Below are positions 1 through 12,726 of a stretch of 12,726 bases of DNA, piece after piece (position 1 is the first letter of the stretch; the number at the start of each line of letters is the position of its first letter). A program made the position numbers and the translations under genes. Source of the DNA: a virus (lineage: Duplodnaviria; Heunggongvirae; Uroviricota; Caudoviricetes); the IMG/VR virus record IMGVR_UViG_3300014846_000084. One strand, 5' to 3'. The notes under the pieces were generated by a model. It saw nothing but the letters and a program-made list of their open reading frames with translations. It searched no databases and was not told the DNA's origin.

Positions 1-1230
1 ATGAGCAGAGCACTTAACAAACTGAGCGATACACAGCTGAGGAAAATCAACGGCACACCCGCCCAAAAAACAGCCTTTCTTAATGACGGTGGAAACCTGA
101 GCGTCAGGCATTCAACCAGCGGCCTTTTAACCTGGTATTTCACCTACAGGGCCGGAACGGGAAGGGGAGCACGACCGGAACGGATTAAGCTGGGAAATTA
201 TCCTGATCTGAGTCTGAAAGCTGCCAGGGAAAAAGCGGCACAGTGTCGCGCTTGGCTTGCTGAGGGGAAAAATCCACGTCATGAGATGAATTACACCGTA
301 CAGAAAGCGTTAAAGCCCGTAACGGTTGGCGATGCGCTTACCTACTGGCTTGAGTCTTACGTAAAGGAAAACCGCGTGGATTATGCCGCCCTGAAAAAGC
401 GCCTTAATAATCACGTAATACAGCACATTGGTGCTATGCCGCTGGATAAATGCGAGCTACGGCACTGGCTGGCCTGTTTTGACCAGGTGGCAAAGCGAAC
501 GCCTGTTACTGCCGGATTCTTGCTACAGACGTGCAAACAGGCGCTTAAGTTCTGCCGGAGGCGGCGCTATGCAATCAGCAACGTTCTTGATGATATGAGT
601 GTGGCGGACGTTGGGAAAAAACCGGATATAAGCGAGCGTGTCTTAAGCACCAAAGAACTTGGCGAATTATTGCAGGCACTGGACAAAAAAATATTTTCCC
701 CTTACTACGTCGCACTAATCCGCCTCCTGATTGTTTTTGGATGCCGGACGGTAGAACTGAGGTTATCGGAGATCAGCGAGTGGGATTTTACCGAAATGCT
801 CTGGACCGTGCCGAAAGAACACAGCAAAACGAAGGTGGCAATATTCCGGCCCATACCGGAAGCAATACTGCCGTTCGTCACGCAGCTGGTGGAGCAGAAC
901 AGGCACACGGGCTTATTGCTGGGGGAAGTGAAACAGGAAACAAGCGTGTCGCAGTACGGCAGATTAGCGCACAGGAGGCTAAAACACCCTCACTGGTCAC
1001 TGCATGACATCCGGCGCACCTTTACAACGATGCTGAACGATTTAGGCGTGGATCCTCACGTCGTGGAGCAGCTTACAGGTCATCAGATGCCAGGGATGCA
1101 ACGAGTCTATAACCATTCCCGTTATCTGGATGCGAAACGTGACGCGCTGGATATGTGGACGGAGCGGTTAGGGATACTGGCGGGAACACATGAAAACGTA
1201 ACCACATTGCCAATAGCCAGAGAAATATAA
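1..1230 (+). CDS. int: Tyrosine site-specific integrase, P4-like family (409 aa)
   Basis: Full-length ORF from the track. C-terminal catalytic motifs are readable in the translation: R in GCRTVELRL, H-x-x-R in SLHDIRRTF, Y in QRVYNHSRY. N-terminal region resembles the arm-binding domain of P4-type integrases. Upstream start context is outside the window. Confidence 0.9.
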   Translation: MSRALNKLSDTQLRKINGTPAQKTAFLNDGGNLSVRHSTSGLLTWYFTYRAGTGRGARPERIKLGNYPDLSLKAAREKAAQCRAWLAEGKNPRHEMNYTVQKALKPVTVGDALTYWLESYVKENRVDYAALKKRLNNHVIQHIGAMPLDKCELRHWLACFDQVAKRTPVTAGFLLQTCKQALKFCRRRRYAISNVLDDMSVADVGKKPDISERVLSTKELGELLQALDKKIFSPYYVALIRLLIVFGCRTVELRLSEISEWDFTEMLWTVPKEHSKTKVAIFRPIPEAILPFVTQLVEQNRHTGLLLGEVKQETSVSQYGRLAHRRLKHPHWSLHDIRRTFTTMLNDLGVDPHVVEQLTGHQMPGMQRVYNHSRYLDAKRDALDMWTERLGILAGTHENVTTLPIAREI

Positions 1231-1257
1231 TTTTTTTTGCGATTTTTCAGGATGCGG

Positions 1258-1315
1258 ACAACGTGAAACAACGAGACACAACGACGAACAACAAGGAACA
1301 AAATGGAACAACGGG
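1258..1315. repeat. Tandem array of six phased 10-bp repeats (consensus about ACGnGGAACA, ACAAC core every 10 bp) immediately 3' of int
   Basis: ACAAC at 1258, 1268, 1278, 1288, 1308 and the variant ACAAA at 1298, exactly 10 bp apart. Top strand is almost entirely A/C/G. Confidence 0.6.
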
Positions 1316-1595
1316 TTAAAAATCAGCCATCGTAATAACCATTTGATTTTTATAGGTGTACTGTTTTTTTATACACTGGCGAATCACTCTTAAAAATATG
1401 TAAAAAAGGCGTAAAAGTAAAATTTTATGCCTTTGCATCATAATGAATTAAAAGAGTTTTTATTCTCATTCCCCCTGCTTCTGTAAAACGACCGCCGCCA
1501 GTGTTTGCCATTCCACAAACACCCTGACACAATCCGACACAACCCAACCCAATAATCCACCCAATGACTCTTTAAGAAACAACAAAGGGGGAATT

Positions 1596-1784
1596 GTGTT
1601 AAGCACAGATCGCTTTATACGTGAAAAAGAATGTCAGCAACTTACAGGCCTGAGCCGCTCATGTCGGTACCGCCTGGAAAAAGCCGGACAATTCCCATCA
1701 CGGCGTAAGCTGGGCGGTCGTTCCGTTGGCTGGTCTTTATCCGAAGTTCTGGCATGGAAGGACAGCTGCGAGGCAGTTCACTAA
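1596..1784 (+). CDS. alpA: AlpA-family (Vis/excisionase-like) HTH transcriptional regulator, 62 aa, GTG start
   Basis: Translation LTGLSRSCRYRLEKAGQFP...GWSLSEVLAWK matches the AlpA/MerR-like winged HTH pattern. Strong SD (AAAGGGGGA) 5 to 8 nt upstream of the GTG at 1596. Confidence 0.85.
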   Translation: MLSTDRFIREKECQQLTGLSRSCRYRLEKAGQFPSRRKLGGRSVGWSLSEVLAWKDSCEAVH

Positions 1785-1836
1785 TCAGGCTGGCGGCACA
1801 CAGCCGCCACCCATCCACTAATACAGAGATCTAACC

Positions 1837-3039
1837 ATGAATACTGGATATTCTCCCGAACAAGGGCGGGGCTTCGTTCGTCCTGAAAAACAGAATCTGC
1901 AAAATTTTGCCGAAATTATTCCGGTTATTTCCGGCCTTACTGGCGGGAGTGAAACCAATATTGTTAACGCCAGAGCGTTGCAGATGTTTGATGATAAAAA
2001 GGGAGTAAATTTAACTTACACCCCTGACGGCAATCAGAATATGAGCATTATCTCTGAGTCAGGTTTCTACAAACTAATAAAAACAAAAAGCGCCCCGTTG
2101 CCGGAGCGCCTTTGTGAACAATTAACCTACTGCGCAAAAAATGAATCTGAGCAGTGGGATTATATCAACCATGTGGAGAAGCGCCACAATTGCCGAATAA
2201 CGGGCAAAACAAAGGCCACCCGCTACGGTGGCCCCTCGACACAAGCTACACGTTATCCCCAACGCATGAGCATTGCCAACAATGCCACATTTGCGGCTGG
2301 TGGGCAATGCAATCAGTCTGGTTCAGTTCGTTGCCATACCTGCAATGAGCGCTTTTCCCTGTACTCTTTAAGGAATTGCTCAAGGGCAAAAGCACATGGC
2401 GCGAATCTTTCTGATTCATGCTCTATCTTTCTGCGCCGTCTTTTCCGTGCCGGTGATAATGTTTTGGTCAATTCTTTATCGGTCATTGTGTTGTCCTGCA
2501 TAGCAATGCGCCGTAATACCTTACACCACGGCGCTGATGGTGATTACTCTGGTTCTTTGGTCTTGCGGCGCTGGAGTTCTTCACGTGCGACAGTGACGAG
2601 CTGCCCGATCTCCTCGGCGGCTTTGATTCCGAGTTTTTCCACCTGCGCCAGTGCATCGAGCGAAGAAACTAGGGGATTTTCTCCACTTCCTTCTGCCTGG
2701 CGCCGGGCGATCTCACCGCGTACAGCCGTAACTATAAAATTCGCTTTAGTTTCCCCTGGCTGTAGGGATGCCTCAATGCCACTCACTACTTCATGTGGAA
2801 ATCTGGCATTCAGTTGCTGTGACTTATTGTTAACAGAACTCCTGGACATGTTTGCACCTCCCATTAATAACGGGATGCAGTGTAATACAAAAGTGAATAC
2901 CAAAAAAGACTTGAAATGGTATTCACCTAAATGTAATGTGAATACCACAAGTGCTGATACATGCAATTCAGCAATTGAAACGACGAAGCCCCGCACTGTT
3001 GGAGCAGTAACGGGGCTTCTAACCAACAACGTAAACTAG
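1837..3039 (+). CDS. Hypothetical ORF with a Bro-N/KilA-N-like segment in the first ~110 aa. The 3' boundary is uncertain: the open frame runs 400 codons, but the distal two thirds look like non-coding antisense of the minus-strand regulator gene. Possible pseudogene or mis-extended ORF.
   Basis: N-terminal translation contains KGVNLTYTPDGNQNMSIISESGFYKLIKTKS, which resembles the conserved Bro-N core. From about residue 150 the composition turns S/C/R-rich and overlaps a well-supported gene on the opposite strand. Weak SD before the ATG at 1837. Confidence 0.3.
   Translation: MNTGYSPEQGRGFVRPEKQNLQNFAEIIPVISGLTGGSETNIVNARALQMFDDKKGVNLTYTPDGNQNMSIISESGFYKLIKTKSAPLPERLCEQLTYCAKNESEQWDYINHVEKRHNCRITGKTKATRYGGPSTQATRYPQRMSIANNATFAAGGQCNQSGSVRCHTCNERFSLYSLRNCSRAKAHGANLSDSCSIFLRRLFRAGDNVLVNSLSVIVLSCIAMRRNTLHHGADGDYSGSLVLRRWSSSRATVTSCPISSAALIPSFSTCASASSEETRGFSPLPSAWRRAISPRTAVTIKFALVSPGCRDASMPLTTSCGNLAFSCCDLLLTELLDMFAPPINNGMQCNTKVNTKKDLKWYSPKCNVNTTSADTCNSAIETTKPRTVGAVTGLLTNNVN
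2313..2486 (-). CDS. Possible small basic protein (57 aa, MTDKELTKTLSPARKRRRRK...), downstream of the RHH gene on the minus strand
   Basis: ORF in the track (2313..2501) trimmed to the second ATG, which has an AGGA about 8 nt upstream. Composition is protein-like but there is no recognisable family. Overlaps the open + frame of the preceding feature. Confidence 0.2.
   Translation of the reverse strand: MTDKELTKTLSPARKRRRRKIEHESERFAPCAFALEQFLKEYREKRSLQVWQRTEPD
2544..2849 (-). CDS. Ribbon-helix-helix (Arc/MetJ-like) DNA-binding regulator, about 101 aa; candidate island repressor
   Basis: Track ORF 2544..3029 trimmed to the internal ATG at 2849, which has a strong SD (GGGAGGTG) 5 nt upstream. 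N-terminal segment LNARFPHEVVSGIEASLQPGETKANFIVTAVRGEI fits an RHH beta-strand/helix pattern. Transcribed divergently from the downstream operon. Confidence 0.7.
   Translation of the reverse strand: MSRSSVNNKSQQLNARFPHEVVSGIEASLQPGETKANFIVTAVRGEIARRQAEGSGENPLVSSLDALAQVEKLGIKAAEEIGQLVTVAREELQRRKTKEPE
2893..2947. promoter_or_regulatory. Operator-like triple repeat GTGAATACCA (direct 2893-2902, inverted 2918-2927, direct 2938-2947) in the divergent intergenic region between the RHH gene and the 3048 operon
   Basis: Three exact copies of a 10-mer in alternating orientation, within about 55 bp, lying between two divergent start codons (2849 minus, 3048 plus). Confidence 0.5.
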
Positions 3040-3047
3040 GAGCCGTT

Positions 3048-3248
3048 ATGGTTGCCGTAAATCATATACCACACCTTGTACACACACAAACGGCCTTTGT
3101 GTGGCGTTTTCTGGCACTGAGTGCCGGAGAATCTCAAATCATCCACGTAACCGCCTGGACGGAACGCGAAGCGCGTAGCCGTTGCCCGTCAGGTTGTGTT
3201 GCTGTATTTGCCGCTCGTATTCGTCAGGGGAAAACCTATGCACAATAA
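3048..3248 (+). CDS. Hypothetical small protein (66 aa), first gene of a coupled operon leading to the primase
   Basis: AGGAG SD at 3038-3042, 5 nt before the ATG. Stop overlaps the start of the next ORF. Confidence 0.5.
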   Translation: MVAVNHIPHLVHTQTAFVWRFLALSAGESQIIHVTAWTEREARSRCPSGCVAVFAARIRQGKTYAQ

Positions 3249-3477
3249 AACCACACCGGACGCAGCAGCCGCCGCGCTCACTACGCTGATGCACGCGCTT
3301 ATTGATATTTCTGTTATTGCTGACAGGGCGCATAAGCACGCCACCAGTGAAACAGAATATGCCGGGGCTTTCGTTCCTCATTCGCTGGCGGTTATGCAAC
3401 TTAGTGCGGATATGGCGCTGAATGAGGCCAAAGCCATCCTGATTGCTGATTGTGAAAATGGGGGGGGTTATGCGTGA
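3238..3477 (+). CDS. Hypothetical small protein (79 aa, MHNKTTPDAAAAALTT...)
   Basis: Track ORF 3196..3477 trimmed to the ATG at 3238, which overlaps the upstream stop and has AGGGGA upstream. Alanine/helix-rich, protein-like composition. Confidence 0.5.
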   Translation: MHNKTTPDAAAAALTTLMHALIDISVIADRAHKHATSETEYAGAFVPHSLAVMQLSADMALNEAKAILIADCENGGGYA

Positions 3478-3703
3478 TGATCGTTTTAATTCCCTGAAAC
3501 AGGAATTTTCCGACGTTCCTGATGATGCGGCTGATGCGCTTTCGTCAATGCCAGAGCTTATTAGAGCGGCTTTTTTCTTACTTTCCACGAGAGAATATAA
3601 ATCAACGGGGCTTGATGTACTGAATATCGCCGCCGATTATGCGGAATATGTGGCAGAGGCGCATTACAGAAGAAAATTTCCTGAGGATGTAAGCCATGCG
3701 TGA
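3470..3703 (+). CDS. Hypothetical small acidic protein (77 aa, MRDDRFNSLKQEF...)
   Basis: Track ORF 3443..3703 trimmed to the ATG at 3470, which overlaps the upstream stop in the motif ATGCGTGA. G-rich SD upstream. Confidence 0.55.
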   Translation: MRDDRFNSLKQEFSDVPDDAADALSSMPELIRAAFFLLSTREYKSTGLDVLNIAADYAEYVAEAHYRRKFPEDVSHA

Positions 3704-3929
3704 TATTTACCACGAAACAATAGACCGCGCATTTCTTGCACTTTCTCACAGTGAAAACATGCTGGAAATATTGCGCATATGGCTTGAAACACTTGGCGAC
3801 AATGAACGCGACAAACAAAAATCAAGAATTGCCACGGCATTAATAACGCTTCTTGATCCTGTAATAATGGAACTGCAAGAAATAGATCTATTGCACGACA
3901 GATATAAAGAACAGCACACCGGAGAATAA
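3696..3929 (+). CDS. Hypothetical small protein (77 aa, MRDIYHETIDRAF...)
   Basis: ATG at 3696 overlaps the upstream stop in the same ATGCGTGA arrangement. GAGGA SD at about 3682. Confidence 0.55.
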   Translation: MRDIYHETIDRAFLALSHSENMLEILRIWLETLGDNERDKQKSRIATALITLLDPVIMELQEIDLLHDRYKEQHTGE

Positions 3930-3934
3930 AAATA

Positions 3935-4234
3935 ATGAAACTTAAATATTCTGGCTTAACTGCCAGTGGCAACACTCACCCTAAATTTACGCGCGGTGAT
4001 ATTTACCGCGACCAGTACGGCGGCACGGTAATGATTAAGGGCGTGGAGGAACGTCGCGTAACTTACCGCCGTGAAGGCTACGAATATGATTGCGTGATGC
4101 CTGTTTATCAGTTCGACCGTGATTTTTCTCTTGTGCAGGCCGTACCGCGTAACGTGCCCACCAGCAGGGAGAAAGCACGCGCCAATATTCAGAAGATGAA
4201 AACCATGATTAACGGATTCAGGGGTAAAAAATGA
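3935..4234 (+). CDS. Hypothetical protein (99 aa), translationally coupled to the primase gene (ATGA overlap)
   Basis: Track ORF with GGAGA SD upstream. Its stop overlaps the primase ATG at 4231. Confidence 0.6.
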   Translation: MKLKYSGLTASGNTHPKFTRGDIYRDQYGGTVMIKGVEERRVTYRREGYEYDCVMPVYQFDRDFSLVQAVPRNVPTSREKARANIQKMKTMINGFRGKK

Positions 4235-5985
4235 AACTGGCACCGAACGTAAAACAGCAGTCACGCGGCATAAAACACAAAGAAACAGAAGTCATTATTT
4301 TTGCGGGTAGTGATGCCTGGTCACACGCAAAACAATGGCAGGAACATGACGCGCGTATGGCCGGAGATAATGAGCCTCCTGTGTGGCTTGGGGAGCAGCA
4401 GTTATCCGAACTGGATAAGCTGCAAATTGTGCCGGAAGGCAGAAAATGCGTACGAATATTCAGGGCCGGACATCTTGCGCCAGTAATGATAAAGGCGATT
4501 GGTCAGAAGCTGGCGGCGGCTGGCGTACAGGATGCAAATTTTTATCCTGAGGGTATGCACGGCCAGGAGGTGCAGAACTGGCGCGAATATCTGGCCCGTG
4601 AGCGACAGAATCTTTCTGATGGTCTGGTCATTGAGCTTCCGGTAAAGCAAAAGGCGCAACTTTCTCAGATGGCGGACAGTGAGCGCGCGCAGCTGCTTTC
4701 CGGGCGCTTTGATGGCGTTTGCGTGCATCCTGAAAGTGAAATCGTCCACGTCTGGCGCGGCGGGGGATGGTGTCCGGTCAGCACAATGGAACTGAGCCGC
4801 GAAATGGTGGCGATCTATTCAGAGCACAGGGCCACTTTCAGCAAGCGCGTAATCAATAACGCCGTGGAAGCGTTAAAAGTTATTGCCGAACCAATGGGCG
4901 AGCCGTCCGGTGATTTACTGCCGTTCGCCAATGGTGCGCTTGACCTGAAAACGGGGGAATTTTACCCGCACACGCCGGAGAACTGGATCACCACGCACAA
5001 CGGCATTGAGTACACGCCACCAGCACCAGGGGAGAACATCCGCGATAACGCGCCAAACTTTCATAAATGGCTTGAGCACGCAGCCGGAAAAGACCCGCGC
5101 AAGATGATGCGTATATGTGCCGCGCTGTACATGATTATGGCGAACCGGTACGACTGGCAGATGTTTATTGAGGCCACCGGAGATGGCGGGAGCGGTAAAA
5201 GTACATTCACGCACATAGCCAGCCTTCTGGCAGGGAAACAGAACACGGTAAGCGCTGAAATGACATCGCTTGATGATGCTGGTGGACGTGCGCAGGTTGT
5301 CGGGAGTCGTCTTATCGTCCTGGCTGACCAGCCGAAATATACAGGCGAAGGAACGGGCATCAAGAAAATCACGGGCGGTGACCCTGTGGAAATTAACCCG
5401 AAATACGAAAAGCGTTTCACGGCTGTAATCAGAGCGGTGGTGCTGGCGACCAACAATAACCCGATGATATTCACCGAACGGGCCGGAGGTGTGGCACGTC
5501 GTCGCGTGATTTTCCGTTTCGACAATATCGTCAGTGAGGCCGAAAAAGACAGGGAGCTACCGGAAAAGATTGCGGCTGAAATCCCTGTCATTATCCGCCG
5601 ATTGCTGGCGAACTTTACCGACCCTGAGAAGGCACGGGCTTTACTACTGGAACAGCGTGACGGTGATGAAGCTCTGGCAATAAAGCAACAGACGGATCCG
5701 GTTATTGAGTTTTGCCAGTTCCTGAATTTTCTGGAGGAAGCACGCGGCCTGATGATGGGCGGCGGTGGCGATTCAGTGAAGTACACGACCAGAAACAGCC
5801 TTTACCGCGTCTATCTGGCGTTTATGGCGTACGCAGGCAGGAGCAAACCGCTAAACGTAAATGACTTTGGCAAGGCTATGAAGCCAGCCGCGAAAGTTTA
5901 CGGACATGAATATATTACGCGGAAAGTTAAGGGAGTAACGCAGACTAACGCAATAACAACAGACGATTGCGACGCGTTTTTATAA
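4231..5985 (+). CDS. Phage/plasmid primase-helicase, P4 alpha-like (D5_N plus P-loop NTPase C-terminal region), 584 aa; probable replication initiator of the island
   Basis: Walker A reads EATGDGGSGKST and a Walker-B-like RLIVLADQ follows. Overall size and layout match P4-family primase C-terminal domain proteins. The iteron array starts directly after the stop. Confidence 0.88.
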   Translation: MKLAPNVKQQSRGIKHKETEVIIFAGSDAWSHAKQWQEHDARMAGDNEPPVWLGEQQLSELDKLQIVPEGRKCVRIFRAGHLAPVMIKAIGQKLAAAGVQDANFYPEGMHGQEVQNWREYLARERQNLSDGLVIELPVKQKAQLSQMADSERAQLLSGRFDGVCVHPESEIVHVWRGGGWCPVSTMELSREMVAIYSEHRATFSKRVINNAVEALKVIAEPMGEPSGDLLPFANGALDLKTGEFYPHTPENWITTHNGIEYTPPAPGENIRDNAPNFHKWLEHAAGKDPRKMMRICAALYMIMANRYDWQMFIEATGDGGSGKSTFTHIASLLAGKQNTVSAEMTSLDDAGGRAQVVGSRLIVLADQPKYTGEGTGIKKITGGDPVEINPKYEKRFTAVIRAVVLATNNNPMIFTERAGGVARRRVIFRFDNIVSEAEKDRELPEKIAAEIPVIIRRLLANFTDPEKARALLLEQRDGDEALAIKQQTDPVIEFCQFLNFLEEARGLMMGGGGDSVKYTTRNSLYRVYLAFMAYAGRSKPLNVNDFGKAMKPAAKVYGHEYITRKVKGVTQTNAITTDDCDAFL

Positions 5986-5997
5986 TTTGTTGCAATG

Positions 5998-6225
5998 GCT
6001 GTCTACCCTGTCTACCTGAGTAAAGAAAAATACATTTAATTCAGTACATTAACTTAGGTAGACAGCCTTTTTTCACTGTCTACCTACTATCTACCCTCTC
6101 TACCTGATTTTACCTGAATCAGACAGGGAGGTAGATACGGGGTAGATAGTGGATAAAAGCACTCTACCCTACTGAAAGCCGCGCCATTACTGGCATGGTG
6201 GCCAGTAAGGTAGATAAGGTAGACA
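5998..6225. repeat. Iteron array, candidate origin of replication: about 12 copies of GGTAGA(C/T)A / T(G)TCTACC in both orientations flanking an AT-rich spacer
   Basis: CTGTCTACC at 5999-6007, 6008-6016 and 6076-6084; GGTAGACAG at 6057-6065; TCTACC at 6090 and 6099; GGTAGATA at 6130, 6141 and 6209; GGTAGACA at 6218. AT-rich stretch at 6018-6056. Confidence 0.6.
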
Positions 6226-6273
6226 AGGGGAGGCACAACTCAAAACTTTTTAAACGAGGGGGTAAAAATAAAA

Positions 6274-6525
6274 ATGCGCACATCAGGAAAACTTAATAAT
6301 CAGAAGAAGCAGCATAACCGCGCCATTGACCTTACAGAGCACTGGCTGAGAGTGGCGATAAAAATCATCGACCGCAACACGGGGGAAGGATACGCGAAAG
6401 CACATCCCGACCTGATAAGCGCATTCATGACCACGGCGGCGGCAAACTTTGCCACGCTGACAGAACGGGAGATTGCCGAAGCGGAACAGGTAACAACCAT
6501 CAACGTTAAAAGCGCTGGAGAATAA
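6274..6525 (+). CDS. Hypothetical protein (83 aa)
   Basis: Track ORF. GAGGGGG SD at 6256-6262. Followed by an intrinsic terminator. Confidence 0.55.
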   Translation: MRTSGKLNNQKKQHNRAIDLTEHWLRVAIKIIDRNTGEGYAKAHPDLISAFMTTAAANFATLTEREIAEAEQVTTINVKSAGE

Positions 6526-6543
6526 CCGAAGAAGTGAGCACAT

Positions 6544-6568
6544 AGCCGGAGCAATCCGGCTTTTTTTC
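6544..6568 (+). terminator. Rho-independent terminator (AGCCGGA-gcaa-TCCGGCT followed by a T7 run)
   Basis: 7-bp GC-rich stem with a 4-nt loop and a run of seven T immediately after, 20 nt past the stop of the 6274 ORF. Confidence 0.6.
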
Positions 6569-6655
6569 GATCTCATATATCTTAAAAGATGGTTAATTAA
6601 TGATAATCTATCGAAAATACTGGTTATGTAATGATAAGTATCAGGAGAAAACAAA

Positions 6656-6850
6656 GTGGAAGAGATAAAGCAAAGCGCTACCGTGATGATTGATCATGAA
6701 ATCCTTAACGAGCTTAAAAAGTTGCAGTTCGATATTGTGCGCCGGATGAATGAATCAGGTATCTACGGCAGGGCGGCAACACCAACAATAGGGCATCTTG
6801 CGCGCGTACTGTTACGCGAACGCCTGGGCATTGCAACAAGTGAGGCGTAA
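6656..6850 (+). CDS. Hypothetical small protein (64 aa), GTG start; first gene of the putative late/packaging operon
   Basis: Track ORF. CAGGAG SD at about 6642. Preceded by an AT-rich promoter-like stretch at 6570-6650. Confidence 0.5.
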   Translation: MEEIKQSATVMIDHEILNELKKLQFDIVRRMNESGIYGRAATPTIGHLARVLLRERLGIATSEA

Positions 6851-6853
6851 ACA

Positions 6854-7015
6854 ATGGCTATCACAGAACGCGAGGCAAGCATCATTAAGGCCATTGGCGA
6901 GGAAACAAGAGACACCATAGCGCCATTGATGGAAAAGATCGCAGAGCTTGAGACACGAATAAACAAGCTGAGTAATGAAGTTGAAGGCCTGATCTCGTTA
7001 CTCGGTGAGCAATGA
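6854..7015 (+). CDS. Small predicted coiled-coil protein (53 aa, MAITEREASIIKAIGEETRDTIAPLMEKIAELETRINKLSNEVEGLISLLGEQ); absent from the ORF track, which appears to omit ORFs under 60 aa
   Basis: Translated by hand. ATG lies 4 nt after the upstream stop, with a GAGG about 9 nt upstream. Heptad-like charged/hydrophobic pattern. Confidence 0.4.
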   Translation: MAITEREASIIKAIGEETRDTIAPLMEKIAELETRINKLSNEVEGLISLLGEQ

Positions 7016-7143
7016 CATGGGGGGGAGTGTTCCGGCCGGAAAGTCGATCTCCCTGGACACCGCCCCCCGTCTCATTCGTAGAAAATTTTGCTTTTCAAAA
7101 AAGTTACACGAAAAGTTACACCCCCTCAAAACGAGGTTTTTGC

Positions 7144-7632
7144 ATGGCATTAACGACCAAAAAAAAGCGGTTTGCTGATGCGTTATCAAGGGGCGCAAAT
7201 CCCACGGAAGCCGCTATACATGCGGGATACAGCGAAAAGACCGCAAGGGTTAAAGGCTGGCAGCTATCCAACGATCCTGAGGTGAAAAAGTATCTTAAGG
7301 CTGTAACTCCTGATGTAACTTTTCAGGTTACAAAACCGAAAAAAGTTACAAAGAAAGTTACCGAAAAAGTTACACCGGAACGGGCATCAATTAACACCAT
7401 TGAGATGATGGATAACGGCCTACCCGACCCCATCAAAGCAATGGGCAGGATACTGATTGACAACATGGACACAGATCCAAAACTGGCTTTAGATGCCGCG
7501 TTTAAGCTGGCCCAGTTCACCCACCGCAAGATCGGCAGCATTGGGAAAAAAGAGGTTAAAAAACTCAATGCCGCTAGTGTCTCCTCAAATCGGTTCCCCA
7601 TCCCTAAGCCACCAACAGGCTTAAAACACTGA
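7144..7632 (+). CDS. terS: Terminase small subunit (TerS, Terminase_2-like), 162 aa
   Basis: Track ORF 7012..7632 trimmed to the internal ATG at 7144, which has a GAGG SD. N-terminus FADALSRGANPTEAAIHAGYSEKTARVKGWQLSNDPEV matches the conserved TerS HTH signature (AGYS..TA). The upstream 44 codons of the track ORF are GC-rich, structured, non-coding-looking sequence. Confidence 0.8.
   Translation: MALTTKKKRFADALSRGANPTEAAIHAGYSEKTARVKGWQLSNDPEVKKYLKAVTPDVTFQVTKPKKVTKKVTEKVTPERASINTIEMMDNGLPDPIKAMGRILIDNMDTDPKLALDAAFKLAQFTHRKIGSIGKKEVKKLNAASVSSNRFPIPKPPTGLKH
7303..7375. repeat. Cluster of six GTTAC/GTAAC pentamer-containing repeats spaced about 12 bp apart inside terS (encoding the repetitive KVT linker); candidate pac/TerS recognition site
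   Basis: GTAAC at 7303 and 7315; GTTAC at 7328, 7345, 7357 and 7369. Two further AAAAGTTACAC copies lie just upstream of the terS start (GTTACAC at 7103-7109 and 7115-7121). Confidence 0.45.
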
Positions 7633-7643
7633 GGTAGCGAACT

Positions 7644-7805
7644 ATGAGCGAATACATCACAGACCCTATTGATGTACTCACGGAAATCATGAACGACAAG
7701 CAGCAGTCGACCGAAATACGGTTACAGGCCGCCGCTATTCTGATGCCATATTTTCACGAAACACTAAACCCGTGCTTCCAAGAGGAGGAAGAAGATGATC
7801 TGTAA
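7644..7805 (+). CDS. Small acidic protein (53 aa, MSEYITDPIDVLTEIMNDKQQSTEIRLQAAAILMPYFHETLNPCFQEEEEDDL); absent from the ORF track
   Basis: Translated by hand. ATG at 7644 lies 11 nt after the terS stop, with a GAGG about 9 nt upstream. Its 3' end overlaps the start of the capsid-like gene by 11 nt. Confidence 0.4.
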   Translation: MSEYITDPIDVLTEIMNDKQQSTEIRLQAAAILMPYFHETLNPCFQEEEEDDL

Positions 7806-8718
7806 AAACATGAAAGGCGTGTCAGCAGTTCGCGCCGCCAGCGTGCTGGCATCGTGTAAATTTAGCCATGCTGACGCTATAGAGATGACGAAAAGAAATG
7901 ATCCGGCAGTATCGTTATTTCTTGAAAAATCCGTAGTAGCAGGAATGAACACGGATAACATGCCGTCGCTGGTGGCAGAGCCGATAGTAAGAGAGCTTGG
8001 CGAGTATATTTTTTCGCAGTCTGTACCAGGCAAGCTAATCAGCAGCGCGCTAAATCTTCCGTTTGGCGCAAAATTGCAGTCAATATCAGGCAAGGGTAGT
8101 AAATGGCTTAAAGAGGCCGAAGAAATCCCAGTCAAAGAGGGAGAAGTAAACGAAAGCGCGCTAAAACTGTGCAAACTCGGCGCTATTGTGATGCTGAATA
8201 ACGAGCTAATCAAATTTAGCACCCCTGGTACCAATTCAGCGATCAGAGACTTGATCACATCGGAATCGGTGAAAGAAATAGATAAAAAATTTCTTTCCAG
8301 TGACCAGGAGGTGGCTGGCGTATCCCCTGAGGGCGTGCTTAATGGTGCTGATGAGGCCGAAAACTTCATAGAGCTTTTCAAAAAGCACATAGCGAACGGT
8401 AACACGCTTGCCACGTCGTCGCTAATCTTGCCCGTAGAAAACGCCTTACAGCTTACTGATGCTGAGTTCTGGCAGATAGAGCTTTTGAGAATACCGGTAA
8501 TTGTGAGCGAACAGGCGGATCTCATGATGCTGATAGACGCTAAAAAGCTGATTATTAACGTTGAAGCCACGGTTATAACCCCAACTGATGAGGCGGTAAT
8601 AAAAACCGAATCAGGGACGGTTAGCCTTTTCCAGAATGACGCTACAGCGTTCATGGCAATCACCTATTGCGGATGGCAAAAACTCGATAAGGCCGTCACC
8701 GTTCTGGCGAAAAGCTGA
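7795..8718 (+). CDS. HK97-fold major capsid protein homolog (307 aa), putative; possibly a capsid-redirecting MCP paralog given the absence of other head genes
   Basis: AGGAGG SD 7 nt upstream of the ATG. The overall pattern, especially the C-terminal region (LRIPVIVSEQADLMMLIDAKKLIINVEATVITPT...SLFQNDATAFMAITYCGWQ), resembles HK97-type major capsid proteins. Assignment is by eye only. Confidence 0.55.
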   Translation: MICKNMKGVSAVRAASVLASCKFSHADAIEMTKRNDPAVSLFLEKSVVAGMNTDNMPSLVAEPIVRELGEYIFSQSVPGKLISSALNLPFGAKLQSISGKGSKWLKEAEEIPVKEGEVNESALKLCKLGAIVMLNNELIKFSTPGTNSAIRDLITSESVKEIDKKFLSSDQEVAGVSPEGVLNGADEAENFIELFKKHIANGNTLATSSLILPVENALQLTDAEFWQIELLRIPVIVSEQADLMMLIDAKKLIINVEATVITPTDEAVIKTESGTVSLFQNDATAFMAITYCGWQKLDKAVTVLAKS

Positions 8719-8732
8719 TTTTTCCGGCATCA

Positions 8733-8762
8733 ATCCCGATATGGTGATCCCCATATCGGGAT
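8733..8762. other. Perfect 12-bp inverted repeat hairpin (ATCCCGATATGG-tgatcc-CCATATCGGGAT) 15 nt after the capsid-like gene stop; possible weak terminator, RNA element or protein-binding site
   Basis: Arms at 8733-8744 and 8751-8762 are exact reverse complements. Followed by AT-rich sequence but not a clean T-run. Confidence 0.4.
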
Positions 8763-8805
8763 AATTACGAAATTTTCGCAGTTTAATAGCTGACCAGGTG
8801 GAGAA

Positions 8806-9087
8806 ATGACAGAAGCCGAAATACTGGGATTAATCCGCCGCGTTGCCGGAATCAGCAAGCAGGCCGACGAACAGGCCACGCAGCCGGACAGCGTGACCGC
8901 CGAAAATTATGTGCGTGTTGTTGCTGAGGTGATGCGCCGTGATGGTATCCAGCTTAATGATGTGGATATGCGCAACATACGGATCCGCGTTCTTGAAATG
9001 CTGGCCTACAATCGCCGCGTTGAACTGTATCGGGAGAAAGAAAAAATTACGTACCACTGGAAGAAGCCGGAGCGGTTACGGCGTTAA
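8806..9087 (+). CDS. Hypothetical protein (93 aa), last gene of the island
   Basis: Track ORF. AGGTGGAG SD at 8796-8803. Balanced, protein-like composition. Confidence 0.55.
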   Translation: MTEAEILGLIRRVAGISKQADEQATQPDSVTAENYVRVVAEVMRRDGIQLNDVDMRNIRIRVLEMLAYNRRVELYREKEKITYHWKKPERLRR

Positions 9088-9093
9088 CGAGTA

Positions 9094-9138
9094 GTGACAT
9101 ACCGTGACGGAGAGTGACAACCAGTGACACAACGTGAC
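9094..9138. repeat. Tandem array of five phased 10-bp repeats (GTGAC every 10 bp; consensus nnnGTGACAn) at the island terminus
   Basis: GTGAC at 9094, 9104, 9114, 9124 and 9134. Contains the octamer GACACAAC (9126-9133), which also occurs at 1275-1282 and 1536-1543. Confidence 0.6.
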
Positions 9139-9390
9139 AAAAAGACGGTATTTAAACAGGGGGAGTATTTAATACCCCTCCCACCAGCCTGATTAACATT
9201 TAACCGGAAAAAAAATCCGGTACCATGATGGCAGACGCTAGGGCAATCATTGCTGAAATTGCACACTTTTTAAGCAAATCATTTTAGTTATACGTTTGGT
9301 TATACGATTTAAAAGTTGAATCAAGCATATTTATTAAAATCATGTAGTTACACGCTAAATTAAACTACTCTCGTGCCAAAAATCCCAAGA

Positions 9391-9419
9391 AAAAACCAAC
9401 CCTTACGGTTGGTTTTTTT
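9391..9419. terminator. Bidirectional intrinsic terminator (AACCAACC-cttac-GGTTGGTT flanked by an A-run and a T-run); serves the convergent autotransporter gene and probably the island's rightward transcripts
   Basis: Perfect 8-bp stem (9394-9401 / 9407-9414) with a 5-nt loop, a T7 run on the + strand and an A-run upstream that gives a T-run on the minus strand. Lies about 60 nt past the autotransporter stop. Confidence 0.7.
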
Positions 9420-9480
9420 ATATCTGCAATTAATTCGATAAACAGACCGTGACACATCACAGCCTGTTTATTTTCTGTTA

Positions 9481-12072
9481 TCAGAACGTCCAGACCACAC
9501 CCGCCTGAGTATTCCACGGCGATTCTACCCCTGCGCCATTGCCATAGCTGACTGACAAATGACCGCTTAACGTCGGGGTAAACGATGACCTTATACCAGC
9601 CTGATAAACGCCACTGGTTCCAGCCACATCATTATTAAATTTGCCATCGTCATTAACTTTCACCTGGTTAGAATCGGCGTATTCCTGACGCACGGCCGCT
9701 TTCAGCCAGGGTTCCAGCGTCGTACCGTTTTGCAGGTCCATGTGATAGCTTACCGCCGTTCCCGCTTCAGCGCGTAATATCCGGGTATTTCCCACATCCG
9801 CGCGCATGCCGTTTGATAACGTGTAGTCCTGACCATCTGTGGTAAAGCCGGTAAAGGCCAGATAGGGTCTAACACTCCACAATCCGTCAACCCAACGGAA
9901 CCCGCTCTCAACATGAGCACCCGCGCCGTTACTATTGTAATCGCCAAACGCTGTTGCCCCATTACTCATCTTGCCATGGATGGTGTTGGCAAAACGGTCA
10001 ACTTTCACCACCCCATCAACATAGGCACCGTTCTGATGCTCCCAACCGGCATAAGCCCCCAGGGTATAGCTATCGATATTACCTTTGCCGCCGCGATCAA
10101 AACCAATATCAGAATGAGAGTAACCAAAGATCAAGCCGCGAATTGTACTGCTTTCTTCACGGGAGAAACGGCTATCGATACCGAGCGTCAGGCCCGTCAA
10201 TGTTTGCTCAAAACCAGCTCCCGCATCAGTGGTCACGTTGTTGCGGGTGTTAATTGCCGAACTCCACATCGCCGTATCGTAACTAACGCCTTTTACGCTA
10301 CCAAGACGCTCACGCACGGTGTCCAGTTCTGCATCAAATACCAGCGGTTGTGCGGCCGCCATATTCAGCACATCAGTGGTTGAAGGGGTAATTTGCGCGC
10401 GATTCTCTGCCAGACTCCAGCTATGGTTGCCATTATCCAGCAAGGTATATTCATACGTACCGATATCAACAACGCCTCCGGCATTGCCCAACGTAAATGC
10501 AGCATCACCGCCGCCCGTTGTTACCAGTGTAAGGCTATCTCCTGCTGCCGGGCTGGCACCGGTGTCCGTCACGAATATTTTGAAATCACCTGTTGCCTGA
10601 CCGGTGACGTTGAGCTGATCGCTCTGATGATTAGCCATATCGGTACGCATATAAAAATTGCCGTTTCCCGACAGGGTATTGGTGGTCAACGTAATGAAAT
10701 TTTCCGCACTTGCCGTCACTGATGAACGAGTCACTGGCTCATCCATCATAATCACATTTGCGTCAGACATCGCAAGGTTGGCTAAGTTGAGGAGGGTGTT
10801 TTGGTTCGTCGTAGTGATATCGGCAATGATGGTCCATACGCTATTTTCGAGCGAAACGTCCGCTTTGCTGGTATCCACGGCACCATTCGTTCTAAAAGAA
10901 GCGCCCTCAGAAACCACTACCTTACCCACCAACATTGCGGGTGCATAATTTATTTGCGGCTTCATGACCTCAAGAATGCCATCATTCCCTCTGACTGAAA
11001 CGTTAACCATTGTGCCAGCCCAGACGTTAGCGCGGCCATTGTTGATAACCATATTTTCAGAGATGGCTTTTGAGGAATACGTGATACTTCCATTCTGATA
11101 TGATCGACCGAGATCATATACCGCATTTGCCTGCACTTTCGTACCAGTATCCTTTCCCAGCGATTGCATAGTGGCATGCTTATCAAGGATAGTATCAATG
11201 GCCTGCGTGTCCTCCATAACAATGAGCCCGGAACCATCATCCAGTTCATAATTTTTTGACACACCATCTTTTATACTAAATTGGCCTTTACTGTTTGGAC
11301 CACTCACTTCCAGCGCATTCGTTGAGACAATTAATTTTCCGCCTGCTTTTTTATCAACGCCAGTTACAGTCCCGCCATCCATAACCTCCAGTAAGCCGCC
11401 ACTATCTACAGTGGTATTATAAGCGAAGTCATTTTCTTCAACTCGCAAACTTCCGCCGTTTTCCAACAACATATTATTAGCAATACCATTCTTGATATCG
11501 AACTGACCGAGACGGTTTGTTCCGAATACCTCCATGGCCCGCGTGGTTGTTTTAATAGCACCGCCTGCTTTCTGATCTACCGCAAATGCAAATCCCCCCT
11601 CTTTAACCTCCAGTAGTCCTCCCTTTTCGATAGCGACAAAGACGGCCCCCCCATCTTTTTCAACGATTAAGCGCCCGCCTTTAATCGTGGTATCATTCGC
11701 TGCGCCATAAACCTGTAGCACACCATTATTGAGCGTAGTCTGGTTTGCCGCGCCACCCATTTGAACAATTTGATAACCGTCATTTAATACTGAGTATTCT
11801 GCGGCGCCATTCATTTCAATGTACTGATACCCTCCGTTAATTTCAGTATTATTACTTACACCAAATTCTTTTATATGCTGTTCTCCGCCAGGATTGATTT
11901 TCGTATTATTGGCGGTCCCATAAACCAGCTGGATATCTTTTTCCAGGACAACACCATCAACTGTCTCACCATACTCAACAGTTGATGCCAATGCTATGGG
12001 TGAATATAACGCTGTAGCCACCAGAACAGATATTGCGGAACGACAAAGAGAAACAGAACCAGATTGATGCAT
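9481..12072 (-). CDS. AIDA-I-type (type Va) autotransporter adhesin, 863 aa, with signal peptide, repeat-rich passenger and C-terminal beta-barrel translocator
   Basis: N-terminal signal-peptide-like segment (LCRSAISVLVATALYSPIALAST). Passenger region has recurring glycine-rich repeats (e.g. NTKINPGGEQ, NTEINGGYQY, IVEKDGGAVF, LEVKEGGFAF). C-terminal about 280 aa has alternating aromatic/hydrophobic beta-strand pattern and ends ...AGVVWTF, typical of autotransporter beta-domains. Confidence 0.88.
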   Translation of the reverse strand: MHQSGSVSLCRSAISVLVATALYSPIALASTVEYGETVDGVVLEKDIQLVYGTANNTKINPGGEQHIKEFGVSNNTEINGGYQYIEMNGAAEYSVLNDGYQIVQMGGAANQTTLNNGVLQVYGAANDTTIKGGRLIVEKDGGAVFVAIEKGGLLEVKEGGFAFAVDQKAGGAIKTTTRAMEVFGTNRLGQFDIKNGIANNMLLENGGSLRVEENDFAYNTTVDSGGLLEVMDGGTVTGVDKKAGGKLIVSTNALEVSGPNSKGQFSIKDGVSKNYELDDGSGLIVMEDTQAIDTILDKHATMQSLGKDTGTKVQANAVYDLGRSYQNGSITYSSKAISENMVINNGRANVWAGTMVNVSVRGNDGILEVMKPQINYAPAMLVGKVVVSEGASFRTNGAVDTSKADVSLENSVWTIIADITTTNQNTLLNLANLAMSDANVIMMDEPVTRSSVTASAENFITLTTNTLSGNGNFYMRTDMANHQSDQLNVTGQATGDFKIFVTDTGASPAAGDSLTLVTTGGGDAAFTLGNAGGVVDIGTYEYTLLDNGNHSWSLAENRAQITPSTTDVLNMAAAQPLVFDAELDTVRERLGSVKGVSYDTAMWSSAINTRNNVTTDAGAGFEQTLTGLTLGIDSRFSREESSTIRGLIFGYSHSDIGFDRGGKGNIDSYTLGAYAGWEHQNGAYVDGVVKVDRFANTIHGKMSNGATAFGDYNSNGAGAHVESGFRWVDGLWSVRPYLAFTGFTTDGQDYTLSNGMRADVGNTRILRAEAGTAVSYHMDLQNGTTLEPWLKAAVRQEYADSNQVKVNDDGKFNNDVAGTSGVYQAGIRSSFTPTLSGHLSVSYGNGAGVESPWNTQAGVVWTF

Positions 12073-12269
12073 TGAGCTTTCATCCTATGAAATTAATTGC
12101 TGTTAAAAGCATTGGGTACAGAAAATACCCATAGCTCCATACCCGGAGTCAGTTTTTAAAAACTGTTTAAAGAAATGCACAAGTATTGTGATTGATTTTT
12201 TAGTTGTTTTTCTTGATGAGAAGCTGATGCAAAATTCCGTCTTTATAATGAAAATGATGCCAAAGCGAA

Positions 12270-12726
12270 TAGACTGGCCCCCTGAATCTCCAGACAACCA
12301 ATATCACTTAAATAAGTGATAGTCTTAATACTAGTTTTTAGACTAGTCATTGGAGAACAGATGATTGATGTCTTAGGGCCGGAGAAACGCAGACGGCGTA
12401 CCACACAGGAAAAGATCGCAATTGTTCAGCAGAGCTTTGAACCGGGGATGACGGTCTCCCTCGTTGCCCGGCAACATGGTGTAGCAGCCAGCCAGTTATT
12501 TCTCTGGCGTAAGCAATACCAGGAAGGAAGTCTTACTGCTGTCGCCGCCGGAGAACAGGTTGTTCCTGCCTCTGAACTTGCTGCCGCCATGAAGCAGATT
12601 AAAGAACTCCAGCGCCTGCTCGGCAAGAAAACGATGGAAAATGAACTCCTCAAAGAAGCCGTTGAATATGGACGGGCAAAAAAGTGGATAAAGCACGCGC
12701 CCTTATTGCCCGGGGATGGGGAGTAA
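12270..12726 (+). mobile_element. IS2 (IS3 family) insertion sequence, left end only; IRL begins about 12270 and the element continues beyond the window
   Basis: Sequence from about 12270 (TAGACTGGCCCCCTGAATCTCCAGACAACC...) matches my recollection of the IS2 left inverted repeat, and the downstream ORF matches IS2 orfA. Recognised from memory, not from a search. Confidence 0.8.
12361..12726 (+). CDS. insC: IS2 transposase OrfA (InsC-like HTH protein), 121 aa
   Basis: Track ORF 12316..12726 trimmed to the ATG at 12361, which has a GGAGAACAG SD-like sequence upstream. Translation [40 protein letters not shown]... is the IS2/IS3-family OrfA as I recall it. Confidence 0.88.

What the first reader, a model, noticed from the sequence alone, without database searches (positions are those of the whole stretch)
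8806..9087. Terminal 93-aa ORF in the accessory position of the island
The last island gene sits where satellites commonly carry cargo (between the packaging module and the att site). No family was recognised by eye.
Basis: inference. Interest (0 to 1): 0.35.

Follow-up and report, generated by a model that had tools for sequence, protein, structure and literature searches.

The report
Conserved last gene of E. coli PICIs
The 93-codon gene is real, but it is a fixed, satellite-specific backbone gene of unknown function found at the right end of nearly every E. coli phage-inducible chromosomal island, not swappable cargo.

Summary
The ORF at 8806-9087 (+) is real: ATG to TAA, 93 aa, purifying selection (dN/dS 0.1-0.35). 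It is the last island gene, about 195 bp before the attR-like repeats and yejO.

It belongs to PHROG family phrog_1561 (unknown function). It is the ortholog (92% identity) of EcCICFT073 c1505. It has no Pfam, NCBIfam, PADLOC, PDB or fold match, and no similarity to connector or head-completion proteins.

It does not behave like variable cargo. It occurs in 1558 of 5426 complete E. coli genomes, about as often as the island replication marker DUF4222, and in none of 50,697 phage records. In the 17 distinct island contexts examined it is always the terminal gene. This holds behind at least six different packaging modules, at more than eight integration sites, and even at 43% identity.

Published strains matter here. 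Primer mapping shows that pBAD18-c1505 did not block lambda. EcCICFT073 lacking c1504-07 still transfers.

My best reading, which is inferred, is a small three-helix binding protein made at the end of the helper-activated packaging operon. It would be a non-essential aid in late or transfer steps. The function remains unproven, and the interest is modest.

The parts
8806..9087 (+). The 93-aa gene itself. Family phrog_1561, ortholog of EcCICFT073 c1505. Predicted to have three helices (3-13, 28-45, 52-82), an acidic N-terminal half, a basic C-terminal half and an invariant tail WKKPERLRR.
8796..8803 (+). Shine-Dalgarno-like AGGTGGAG just upstream of the ATG. In the minimum-energy RNA fold it pairs with UUUUUCCGG at 8718-8726.
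8733..8762 (.). A 30-bp near-perfect palindrome in the 87-nt gap between the capsid homolog and the ORF. As RNA it forms a strong hairpin (fold z-score -4.8). The same module lies downstream of the ORF in other islands.
9094..9138 (+). Five GTGAC(A/G) copies at exactly 10-bp spacing, starting 7 nt after the stop codon. The array is found only downstream of orthologs of this gene in other islands.
9147..9220 (+). An inverted repeat GGTATTTAA/TTTAATACC and the hairpin CCGGAAAAAAAATCCGG. This may end transcription, but the consensus terminator scan did not call it.
9282..9308 (.). The attR-like direct repeats AGTTATACG / GGTTATACG, shared with the left end of the yejM/yejO-site island L001. They mark the right end of the island.
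7795..8718 (+). Upstream neighbour: a 307-aa HK97-type capsid homolog (Pfam Phage_capsid, weak match).
7012..7632 (+). Island small terminase (Pfam Terminase_2, phrog_641).
9481..12072 (-). Host flank: the autotransporter gene yejO.

Best explanation
The ORF encodes the conserved terminal backbone protein of Escherichia/Shigella PICIs (phrog_1561, EcCICFT073 c1505).

Shown:
- There is about one copy per island.
- It is always the last gene, whatever the packaging module or integration site.
- It is a discrete conserved cassette within mosaic flanks.
- It is under purifying selection.
- It is absent from phage genomes.

Published for the 92%-identical ortholog: no lambda interference when expressed alone, and dispensable for lambda- or phi80-mediated transfer.

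Inferred:
- Its 11-kDa three-helix product is not an enzyme. It has an acidic N half, a basic C half and an invariant loop and C-terminal tail.
- It works by binding a protein or nucleic acid during the induced cycle.
- It acts as a non-essential aid to a late step. The most likely place is the packaging or right-arm nucleoprotein stage. That DNA becomes the P arm of attP, upstream of int, after excision. Alternatively it acts on arrival in a new host. It is not an anti-phage effector.
For: Prevalence and specificity:
- 1558 of 5426 genomes carry it, at 1934 places. The PICI-type DUF4222 gene has 1880 places.
- No match in 50,697 phage records.
- Only 34 clusters at 50% identity among 1.84 billion proteins.

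Terminal position behind different upstream genes:
- TerS plus capsid homolog (this window).
- ClpP-capsid fusion (L002).
- Capsid, decoration protein and Nu1-like TerS (L003, L004, L014, L016).
- RppA (L007).
- DUF1441 (L015, L019).
- TerL of capsid-forming PICIs (L005, L006, L008, L017).
- An unrelated module, for the 43%-identical homolog (L010).

Other points:
- Gaps of 2-13 nt to the upstream gene in L005, L006, L008, L015, L016, L017 and L019 suggest it belongs to the operon.
- The window's homology to L003 is exactly 8805-9088. Homology to L002 starts at 8805.
- dN/dS is 0.1-0.35.
- No sigma-70-like promoter was found in 8600-9500.
- The AlphaFold2 model has three helices, pLDDT 70.9 (83-89 over residues 31-70).
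- Charge is bipolar: pI 4.9 for the N half, 10.3 for the C half.
- In a circular excised island the order is ORF, about 720 nt, then int (L019).
Against: - No binding partner or biochemical activity has been shown.
- No fold or sequence relative exists to anchor a mechanism.
- EcCICFT073 c1504-07::cat lacks the ortholog yet served as the transferring 'wild type' (PMC6739421 supplement). Any packaging role is therefore not essential with lambda or phi80.
- That deletion also removed cos2, whose loss alone raises transfer (PMC6092414). A modest defect could be masked.
- The family is almost confined to Escherichia and Shigella. Similar islands exist in other genera, which argues against a universal packaging role.
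- In this window and in L002 the gene follows a capsid gene, not a terminase gene.
Confidence: 0.38

Rival explanations
1. It is cargo after all: a single-gene anti-phage or host-benefit function that has swept to near fixation in E. coli PICIs and sits in the 3' hot spot.
For: - Its position matches the 3' accessory or immune region described for PICIs.
- It is dispensable for transfer.
- It is a discrete cassette with recombination breakpoints at both ends.
- Its host range is restricted to Escherichia and Shigella.
- Only lambda, and probably phi80 and HK97, were tested with the ortholog.
Against: - It is invariant rather than variable, and as frequent as an island core gene.
- It has no PADLOC hit.
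- The ortholog did not reduce lambda plating.
- It abuts the preceding late gene by 2-13 nt in many islands, which leaves no room for its own promoter.
Confidence: 0.2
2. It is an attP-associated factor. It would be either a recombination directionality (architectural) protein or a regulator of int. It would act on the right-arm DNA, which after excision lies between this gene and int.
For: - It is a small basic protein encoded next to attR. After circularisation it lies upstream of attP and int on the same strand.
- The window has five GTGAC copies at one helical turn immediately downstream. This is the layout used by Cox/Apl-type factors (the comparison rests on my own knowledge).
- Other islands carry arrays of IHF-consensus sites there.
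Against: - Nearly identical proteins sit next to different repeat types and with integrases only 25% identical. There is thus no co-variation with the DNA sites or with int.
- The model shows no winged-helix fold.
- Deleting the ortholog together with its downstream repeats does not stop transfer, which requires excision and integration.
- AlpA is the factor known to be required for excision.
Confidence: 0.12
3. It is an establishment factor for the recipient cell. It could be anti-restriction or otherwise protect or condition the transferred DNA. Such a role would be invisible in laboratory crosses between K-12 derivatives.
For: - It is dispensable in K-12 to K-12 transfer.
- Its distribution is host-restricted.
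- It is expressed late in the donor (inferred).
- In cos-type islands an inverted cos site lies 60-70 nt upstream. DNA cut there would carry this gene at its very end.
Against: - It has no similarity to Ral or Gam or to any known anti-restriction fold.
- It is not a strongly acidic DNA mimic; its overall pI is 9.7.
- The idea is purely circumstantial.
Confidence: 0.1
4. It is a morphogenesis protein, either a CpmB-like internal scaffold or size factor, or a head-completion or connector protein.
For: - It is small and helical, with a conserved basic C-terminal tail, and is encoded with capsid genes.
- An unnamed 'hypothetical gene 1792' in the EcCIEDL933 packaging module strongly reduces transfer when mutated. 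That gene could be this ortholog. The 61-aa gene between HNH and terS is the more likely candidate.
Against: - It shows no sequence, profile or fold similarity to the connector or head-closure proteins, to FII, W or FI.
- It is present in islands with and without their own capsid genes.
- EcCICFT073 is packaged in full-size capsids and does not need it.
Confidence: 0.05

Closest known systems
EcCICFT073 c1505 (WP_000133413.1), the gene after rppA and cos2 in the prototype E. coli PICI
   Same: It is 86/93 identical, the same length, and sits in the same terminal position before the right end. It is the same PHROG family.
   Different: In EcCICFT073 an inverted lambda-like cos site (cos2) and rppA lie upstream. 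This window has its own TerS and a capsid homolog, and no lambda cosN. The function of c1505 is unknown. It was only shown not to block lambda and to be dispensable.
Small proteins of the SaPI packaging/interference operon (Ppi, CpmB, Pti proteins)
   Same: They are also short, satellite-specific proteins encoded at the distal end of the helper-activated operon alongside terS or capsid-redirection genes. This comparison rests on my own knowledge and on PMC6739421.
   Different: There is no sequence or fold similarity. The ortholog does not interfere with lambda. No partner is known.
Cox/Apl/TorI-type recombination directionality factors
   Same: They are about 70-90 aa. They are encoded near an att end and act on direct repeats spaced one helical turn apart (my own knowledge). 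The window has such an array at 9094-9138.
   Different: The predicted fold is all-helical with no wing. The repeats do not co-vary with the protein. The ortholog is not needed for transfer.
P4 Psu, the last gene of the satellite P4 late operon
   Same: It is the terminal gene of a satellite's late morphogenesis operon and is non-essential for transduction (my own knowledge).
   Different: The size and sequence are unrelated (Psu is about 190 aa). No evidence here points to a capsid-decoration or Rho-inhibiting role.

Membership tests
phrog_1561 / EcCICFT073 c1505 family | Full-length match to the family profile | tested here: met
   The match covers residues 1-93 against profile positions 1-93 of 93, E = 2.9e-57. 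There are 930 homologs, the best 120 at 89% identity or more.
phrog_1561 / EcCICFT073 c1505 family | Terminal gene of a PICI, co-oriented with the packaging genes and just before the right end | tested here: met
   True for the window and for 16 other distinct islands.
phrog_1561 / EcCICFT073 c1505 family | Conserved motifs: RRDGIxLNxxD...IRxRV and the C-terminal YxWKKPERLRR | tested here: met
   Alignments A1 and A2. The tail is identical even in the 43%-identical P0152.
PICI 3'-end accessory or immune cargo | Located between the packaging module and attR | tested here: met
PICI 3'-end accessory or immune cargo | Variable presence or replacement among related islands | tested here: not met
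   The gene is present in all sampled island types. Its copy number is about the same as the island core marker. Only rare capsid-forming PICIs lack it.
PICI 3'-end accessory or immune cargo | Match to a known defence protein model | tested here: not met
   PADLOC gave 0 families. Pfam and NCBIfam gave none.
PICI 3'-end accessory or immune cargo | Anti-phage activity when expressed alone | not testable with these tools
   Published for the ortholog only: pBAD18-c1505 (pJP2220) did not reduce lambda plating. The primers map to L007 3317-3690, in the sense orientation by the pBAD18 polylinker order, which I took from my own knowledge. Other phages are untested.
Head-completion, connector or head-tail joining proteins | Sequence, profile or fold similarity to connector, head-closure, FII, W or FI proteins | tested here: not met
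Recombination directionality factors (Xis/Cox/Apl/TorI) | Winged-helix or HTH DNA-binding fold | tested here: inconclusive
   The AlphaFold2 model has three helices and no strands, but pLDDT is only 70.9. No HTH family was hit.
Recombination directionality factors (Xis/Cox/Apl/TorI) | Required for excision | not testable with these tools
   Published: an island lacking c1504-07 still transfers. That argues against a requirement.
Rpp / small terminase | Similarity to RppA or to the TerS DNA-binding domain | tested here: not met
   hhalign against RppA gave probability 0.08%. No terminase family was hit.

The most novel reading that the evidence does not exclude
The gene and the repeat-rich DNA that always follows it form a previously unrecognised functional right-end module of enterobacterial PICIs. 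That DNA is either phased GTGAC arrays or arrays of IHF-consensus sites each followed by a variable-stem hairpin. The protein would be a new kind of small nucleoprotein factor that governs a step not probed by K-12/lambda assays. Candidate steps are establishment or integration in natural recipients, insulation of int from late transcription, or helper-specific packaging.
Probability: 0.15. Interest if true: 0.55.

Novelty: new member of a known kind. Interest (0 to 1): 0.3.

Why it matters
PICIs sit in roughly a quarter to a third of E. coli genomes, where they move virulence and defence genes. This gene is as universal in them as their replication genes, and it is absent from phages. Yet it has no assigned function and has only been handled incidentally, once as a cloned control and once as part of a marker-replacement deletion. 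Knowing what it does would fill in the minimal gene set of these satellites. In practical terms it is a clean, satellite-specific marker for the right end of E. coli PICIs. For this window, however, it is an ordinary family member and not a new cargo gene.

Tried and rejected
- **Family searches.** Pfam, NCBIfam and PADLOC found nothing. PDB searches by sequence and by profile found nothing.
- **Profile comparisons.** The family profile showed no relationship to lambda Ral, FI, W, Gam or FII, to the head-closure and connector proteins of capsid-forming PICIs, or to RppA.
- **Other sequence checks.** Rfam found no RNA family in the window. There is no lambda-type cosN. The consensus scan found no promoter or terminator around the ORF.
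- **Does the protein bind the downstream repeats?** I tested this through co-variation and rejected it. Near-identical proteins sit next to different repeat types.
- **Does the ORF type track the integrase or att site?** The data are too few. This window's own integrase does not even match its right end.
- **Which gene is 'hypothetical gene 1792' of EcCIEDL933?** I could not resolve whether it is this ortholog. The preprint has no supplement and the journal version is not held.
- **Species breadth.** The species-level scan of genome contigs returned only one locus, in Shigella. Its peptide patterns were strict, so it is a weak measure of breadth.

Full report
**Observation**

The ORF is at 8806-9087 (+), ATG to TAA, 93 aa, preceded by AGGTGGAG. 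The window is an Escherichia PICI-type satellite. Its genes, in order:
- integrase (1-1230)
- AlpA-like regulator (1596-1784)
- DUF4222 (3935-4234)
- D5/P4-type primase (4231-5985)
- small terminase (7012-7632)
- a 307-aa HK97-like capsid homolog (7795-8718)
- the ORF in question
- about 195 bp of non-coding DNA ending in attR-like repeats (9282-9308)
- yejO on the opposite strand

The ORF is a real gene. Across eight orthologs, variable sites fall 26/20/48 by codon position. Pairwise dN/dS is mostly 0.1-0.35. The overlapping antisense ORF would place the most variable sites at its first codon position, so it is spurious.

**Family**

The protein matches PHROG family phrog_1561 ('unknown function') end to end, E = 2.9e-57. 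Nothing was found in the following:
- Pfam, NCBIfam or PADLOC
- PDB sequences, by single sequence or by profile

A search of 5.8 billion proteins found 930 relatives. All were unnamed or 'hypothetical' (a few 'prophage protein'), and nearly all came from E. coli. An exhaustive search of 1.84 billion cluster representatives found only 34 clusters, mostly fragments. The most distant full-length member is 43% identical. The family is therefore small and essentially confined to Escherichia and Shigella.

**Distribution**

The gene occurs in 1558 of 5426 complete E. coli genomes, at 1934 places and up to six per genome. The PICI-type DUF4222 gene of the replication module occurs at 1880 places. That amounts to about one copy of this gene per island. 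There is no match in 50,697 phage records. The five 'plasmid' hits include a 10.79-kb circle that is plainly an excised island.

**Context**

I examined 17 distinct island contexts, including this window. The gene is always the last one, co-oriented with the packaging genes. What precedes it varies completely:
- TerS plus a capsid homolog (this window and L001)
- a ClpP-capsid fusion (L002)
- capsid, decoration protein and Nu1-like TerS (L003, L004, L014, L016)
- capsid, decoration protein and RppA (EcCICFT073, L007; also L013)
- DUF1441 (L015, L019)
- the large terminase of capsid-forming PICIs (L005, L006, L008, L017)
- for the 43%-identical homolog, an unrelated module ending in a 175-aa HTH protein (L010)

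The integration sites also differ. They include yejO, phoQ, clpS, thiM, smrA, tRNA-Ile/mug, and sites inside prophage terL or capsid genes.

In seven loci the gap to the upstream gene is only 2-13 nt, so the gene is most simply the distal member of the packaging operon. In this window the gap is 87 nt. It holds a strong hairpin (fold z-score -4.8) and no promoter-like site.

The gene behaves as a discrete cassette. The window's homology to L003 is exactly 8805-9088. Its homology to L002 begins at 8805.

**Published evidence on the ortholog**

EcCICFT073, the prototype E. coli PICI, carries a 92%-identical ortholog (86/93) at L007 3374-3655. It lies after rppA and an inverted cos2 site.

I mapped the primers listed in the supplement of Fillol-Salom et al. 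2019 (PMC6739421) onto L007. Three results follow:
- Plasmid pJP2220 ('pBAD18 c1505') spans 3317-3690 in the sense orientation. The orientation follows from the pBAD18 polylinker order, which I took from my own knowledge. So c1505 is this gene.
- The clone called 'c1506' is the antisense ORF.
- The marker replacement 'c1504-07::cat' removes 3104-4001. That includes c1505, cos2 and the downstream repeats.

The paper states that only c1503 (rppA) reduced lambda plating. It also used the c1504-07::cat island as the transferring 'wild type' in lambda and phi80 lysogens. The ortholog therefore does not interfere with lambda and is not needed for induction, packaging, transfer or integration in K-12.

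There is a caveat. Loss of cos2 alone raises transfer (PMC6092414), so a modest defect could be masked.

In the capsid-forming island EcCIEDL933, mutation of a 'hypothetical gene 1792' in the packaging module severely reduced transfer. I could not determine whether that gene is this ortholog (L008 10676-10957) or the 61-aa gene between HNH and terS. I think the latter is more likely.

**Structure**

AlphaFold2, run on a shallow alignment, gives three helices (3-13, 28-45, 52-82). Mean pLDDT is 70.9, and 83-89 over residues 31-70. The N-terminal half is acidic (pI 4.9) and the C-terminal half basic (pI 10.3). The invariant residues cluster in three places: the helix 2-helix 3 loop, the start of helix 3, and the tail YxWKKPERLRR.

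**Interpretation**

The cargo reading fits only the position and the dispensability. It does not fit four things: the invariance, the abundance matching a core gene, the operon-like spacing, and the negative lambda assay.

I conclude that this is a backbone gene of Escherichia PICIs. I infer that it encodes a non-enzymatic binding protein made late in the induced cycle. It would assist a non-essential late step, in packaging or right-arm nucleoprotein assembly, or in establishment in a new host. My confidence in that mechanism is about 0.38. My confidence that the gene is backbone and not variable cargo is much higher.

The rivals, in order of likelihood:
- cargo or defence that has reached fixation (0.2)
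- an attP or int-associated factor (0.12)
- an establishment or anti-restriction factor (0.1)
- a morphogenesis protein (0.05)

**The DNA after the gene**

In this window five GTGAC copies follow the stop codon at exactly 10-bp phase (9094-9138). None of 200 shuffles produced such an array. The array recurs only downstream of orthologs, in L001, L002, L006, L015 and L018.

In most other islands the 600 nt after the gene carry matches to the IHF consensus (YAAN4TTGATW), nearly all (25 of 27) in one orientation. The density is 2.78 per kb, against 0.09 per kb in 258 kb of surrounding sequence. In 9 of 16 loci the first match overlaps the stop codon. Most matches are followed by a short hairpin whose stem sequence varies while the pairing is kept.

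Near-identical proteins sit next to either repeat type, so the repeats are unlikely to be the protein's specific binding sites. Together with the gene they form the conserved right-end architecture. After excision this architecture lies upstream of attP and int.

**Mosaic nature of the window**

Positions 1-2294 (int and alpA) are 100% identical to the left end of islands at the icd/phoQ site, including O157:H7 capsid-forming PICIs. That integrase is only 25% identical to the integrase of the yejM/yejO-site islands. The rest of the window (2295-12269), including attR, matches those yejO-site islands.

No complete E. coli genome in the collection holds the whole window. The junction lies inside the 400-aa ORF at 1837-3039, which is therefore an artefactual fusion across an Icd-like pseudogene. 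The integrase is probably not cognate to the right end. The motif GGTGTAGTYAAT, seen near the right ends of icd/phoQ-type islands, is absent from the window. The island may therefore be unable to excise precisely.

**Verdict**

The cargo interpretation is only partly supported. The gene is an ordinary member of a widespread, uncharacterised, satellite-specific family. Interest is modest (0.3).

Noticed in passing
window 1-2294 versus 2295-12269: The window is a mosaic. Its int-alpA segment is 100% identical to icd/phoQ-site PICIs. That integrase is only 25% identical to the integrase of yejO-site islands. Everything from 2295 onward, including attR and yejO, is of the yejO-site type. No complete E. 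coli genome among the 5426 holds the whole window. The integrase is probably not cognate to the right end, so the island may be locked in place.
   Followed up: partly
window 1837-3039 (+) and 2544-3029 (-): The 400-aa ORF next to alpA spans the recombination junction and has an odd amino-acid composition. It corresponds to an 'Icd-like, incomplete' pseudogene in related islands. It also overlaps a real YlcI/YnfO-family gene on the reverse strand. It is probably not a genuine 400-aa protein or cargo gene.
   Followed up: partly
window 9094-9138: There are five GTGAC(A/G) copies at exactly 10-bp spacing directly after the stop codon. No shuffle out of 200 produced such an array. In 19 loci the array occurs only downstream of orthologs of this gene (L001, L002, L006, L015, L018). 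Its binding protein is unknown.
   Followed up: partly
L003, L005, L007, L008, L010, L013, L017, L019 and others: the 600 nt after the ortholog's stop codon: Arrays of IHF-consensus sites (YAAN4TTGATW), nearly all in one orientation, are 30-fold enriched: 2.78 per kb against 0.09 per kb. In 9 of 16 loci the first site overlaps the stop codon. Most sites are followed by a short hairpin whose stem sequence varies while the pairing is kept. This repeated unit is absent from the present window.
   Followed up: partly
window 8733-8762: A 30-bp palindrome and an adjacent ACGAAATTTTCG palindrome lie upstream of the ORF here. In L002, L003, L004, L007 and L018 the same modules lie downstream of it, so they appear to move around within island right ends. 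In the RNA fold the ribosome-binding site is paired.
   Followed up: no
window 12270-12726: This is the start of an IS3-family element (orfA-like product [18 protein letters not shown]...) inserted beyond yejO. It is where homology to other yejO loci stops, and it explains the thousands of plasmid and chromosome hits.
   Followed up: partly
L005 and L009 (prophage terL), L016 (prophage major capsid gene): Some PICIs are integrated inside morphogenesis genes of resident prophages, leaving those genes truncated next to the island's right end.
   Followed up: no
L019 (NZ_CP148328.1, 10,790 bp, circular): A record deposited as a plasmid is a complete circular PICI running from int to the ortholog. 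It is probably an excised episomal form captured by the assembly.
   Followed up: no
L003, L004, L007, L013: 60-70 nt upstream of the ortholog: In cos-type islands an inverted lambda-like cos site (cos2 of EcCICFT073) sits immediately upstream of the gene. DNA cut there would carry this gene at its extreme end.
   Followed up: no
L010-L012 (SRA contigs): The 43%-identical homolog ends an island whose 'packaging' region consists of unannotated proteins of 194, 223, 205, 678 and 175 aa, preceded by ProQ-like and PerC genes. This may be a further, undescribed hijacking module.
   Followed up: no
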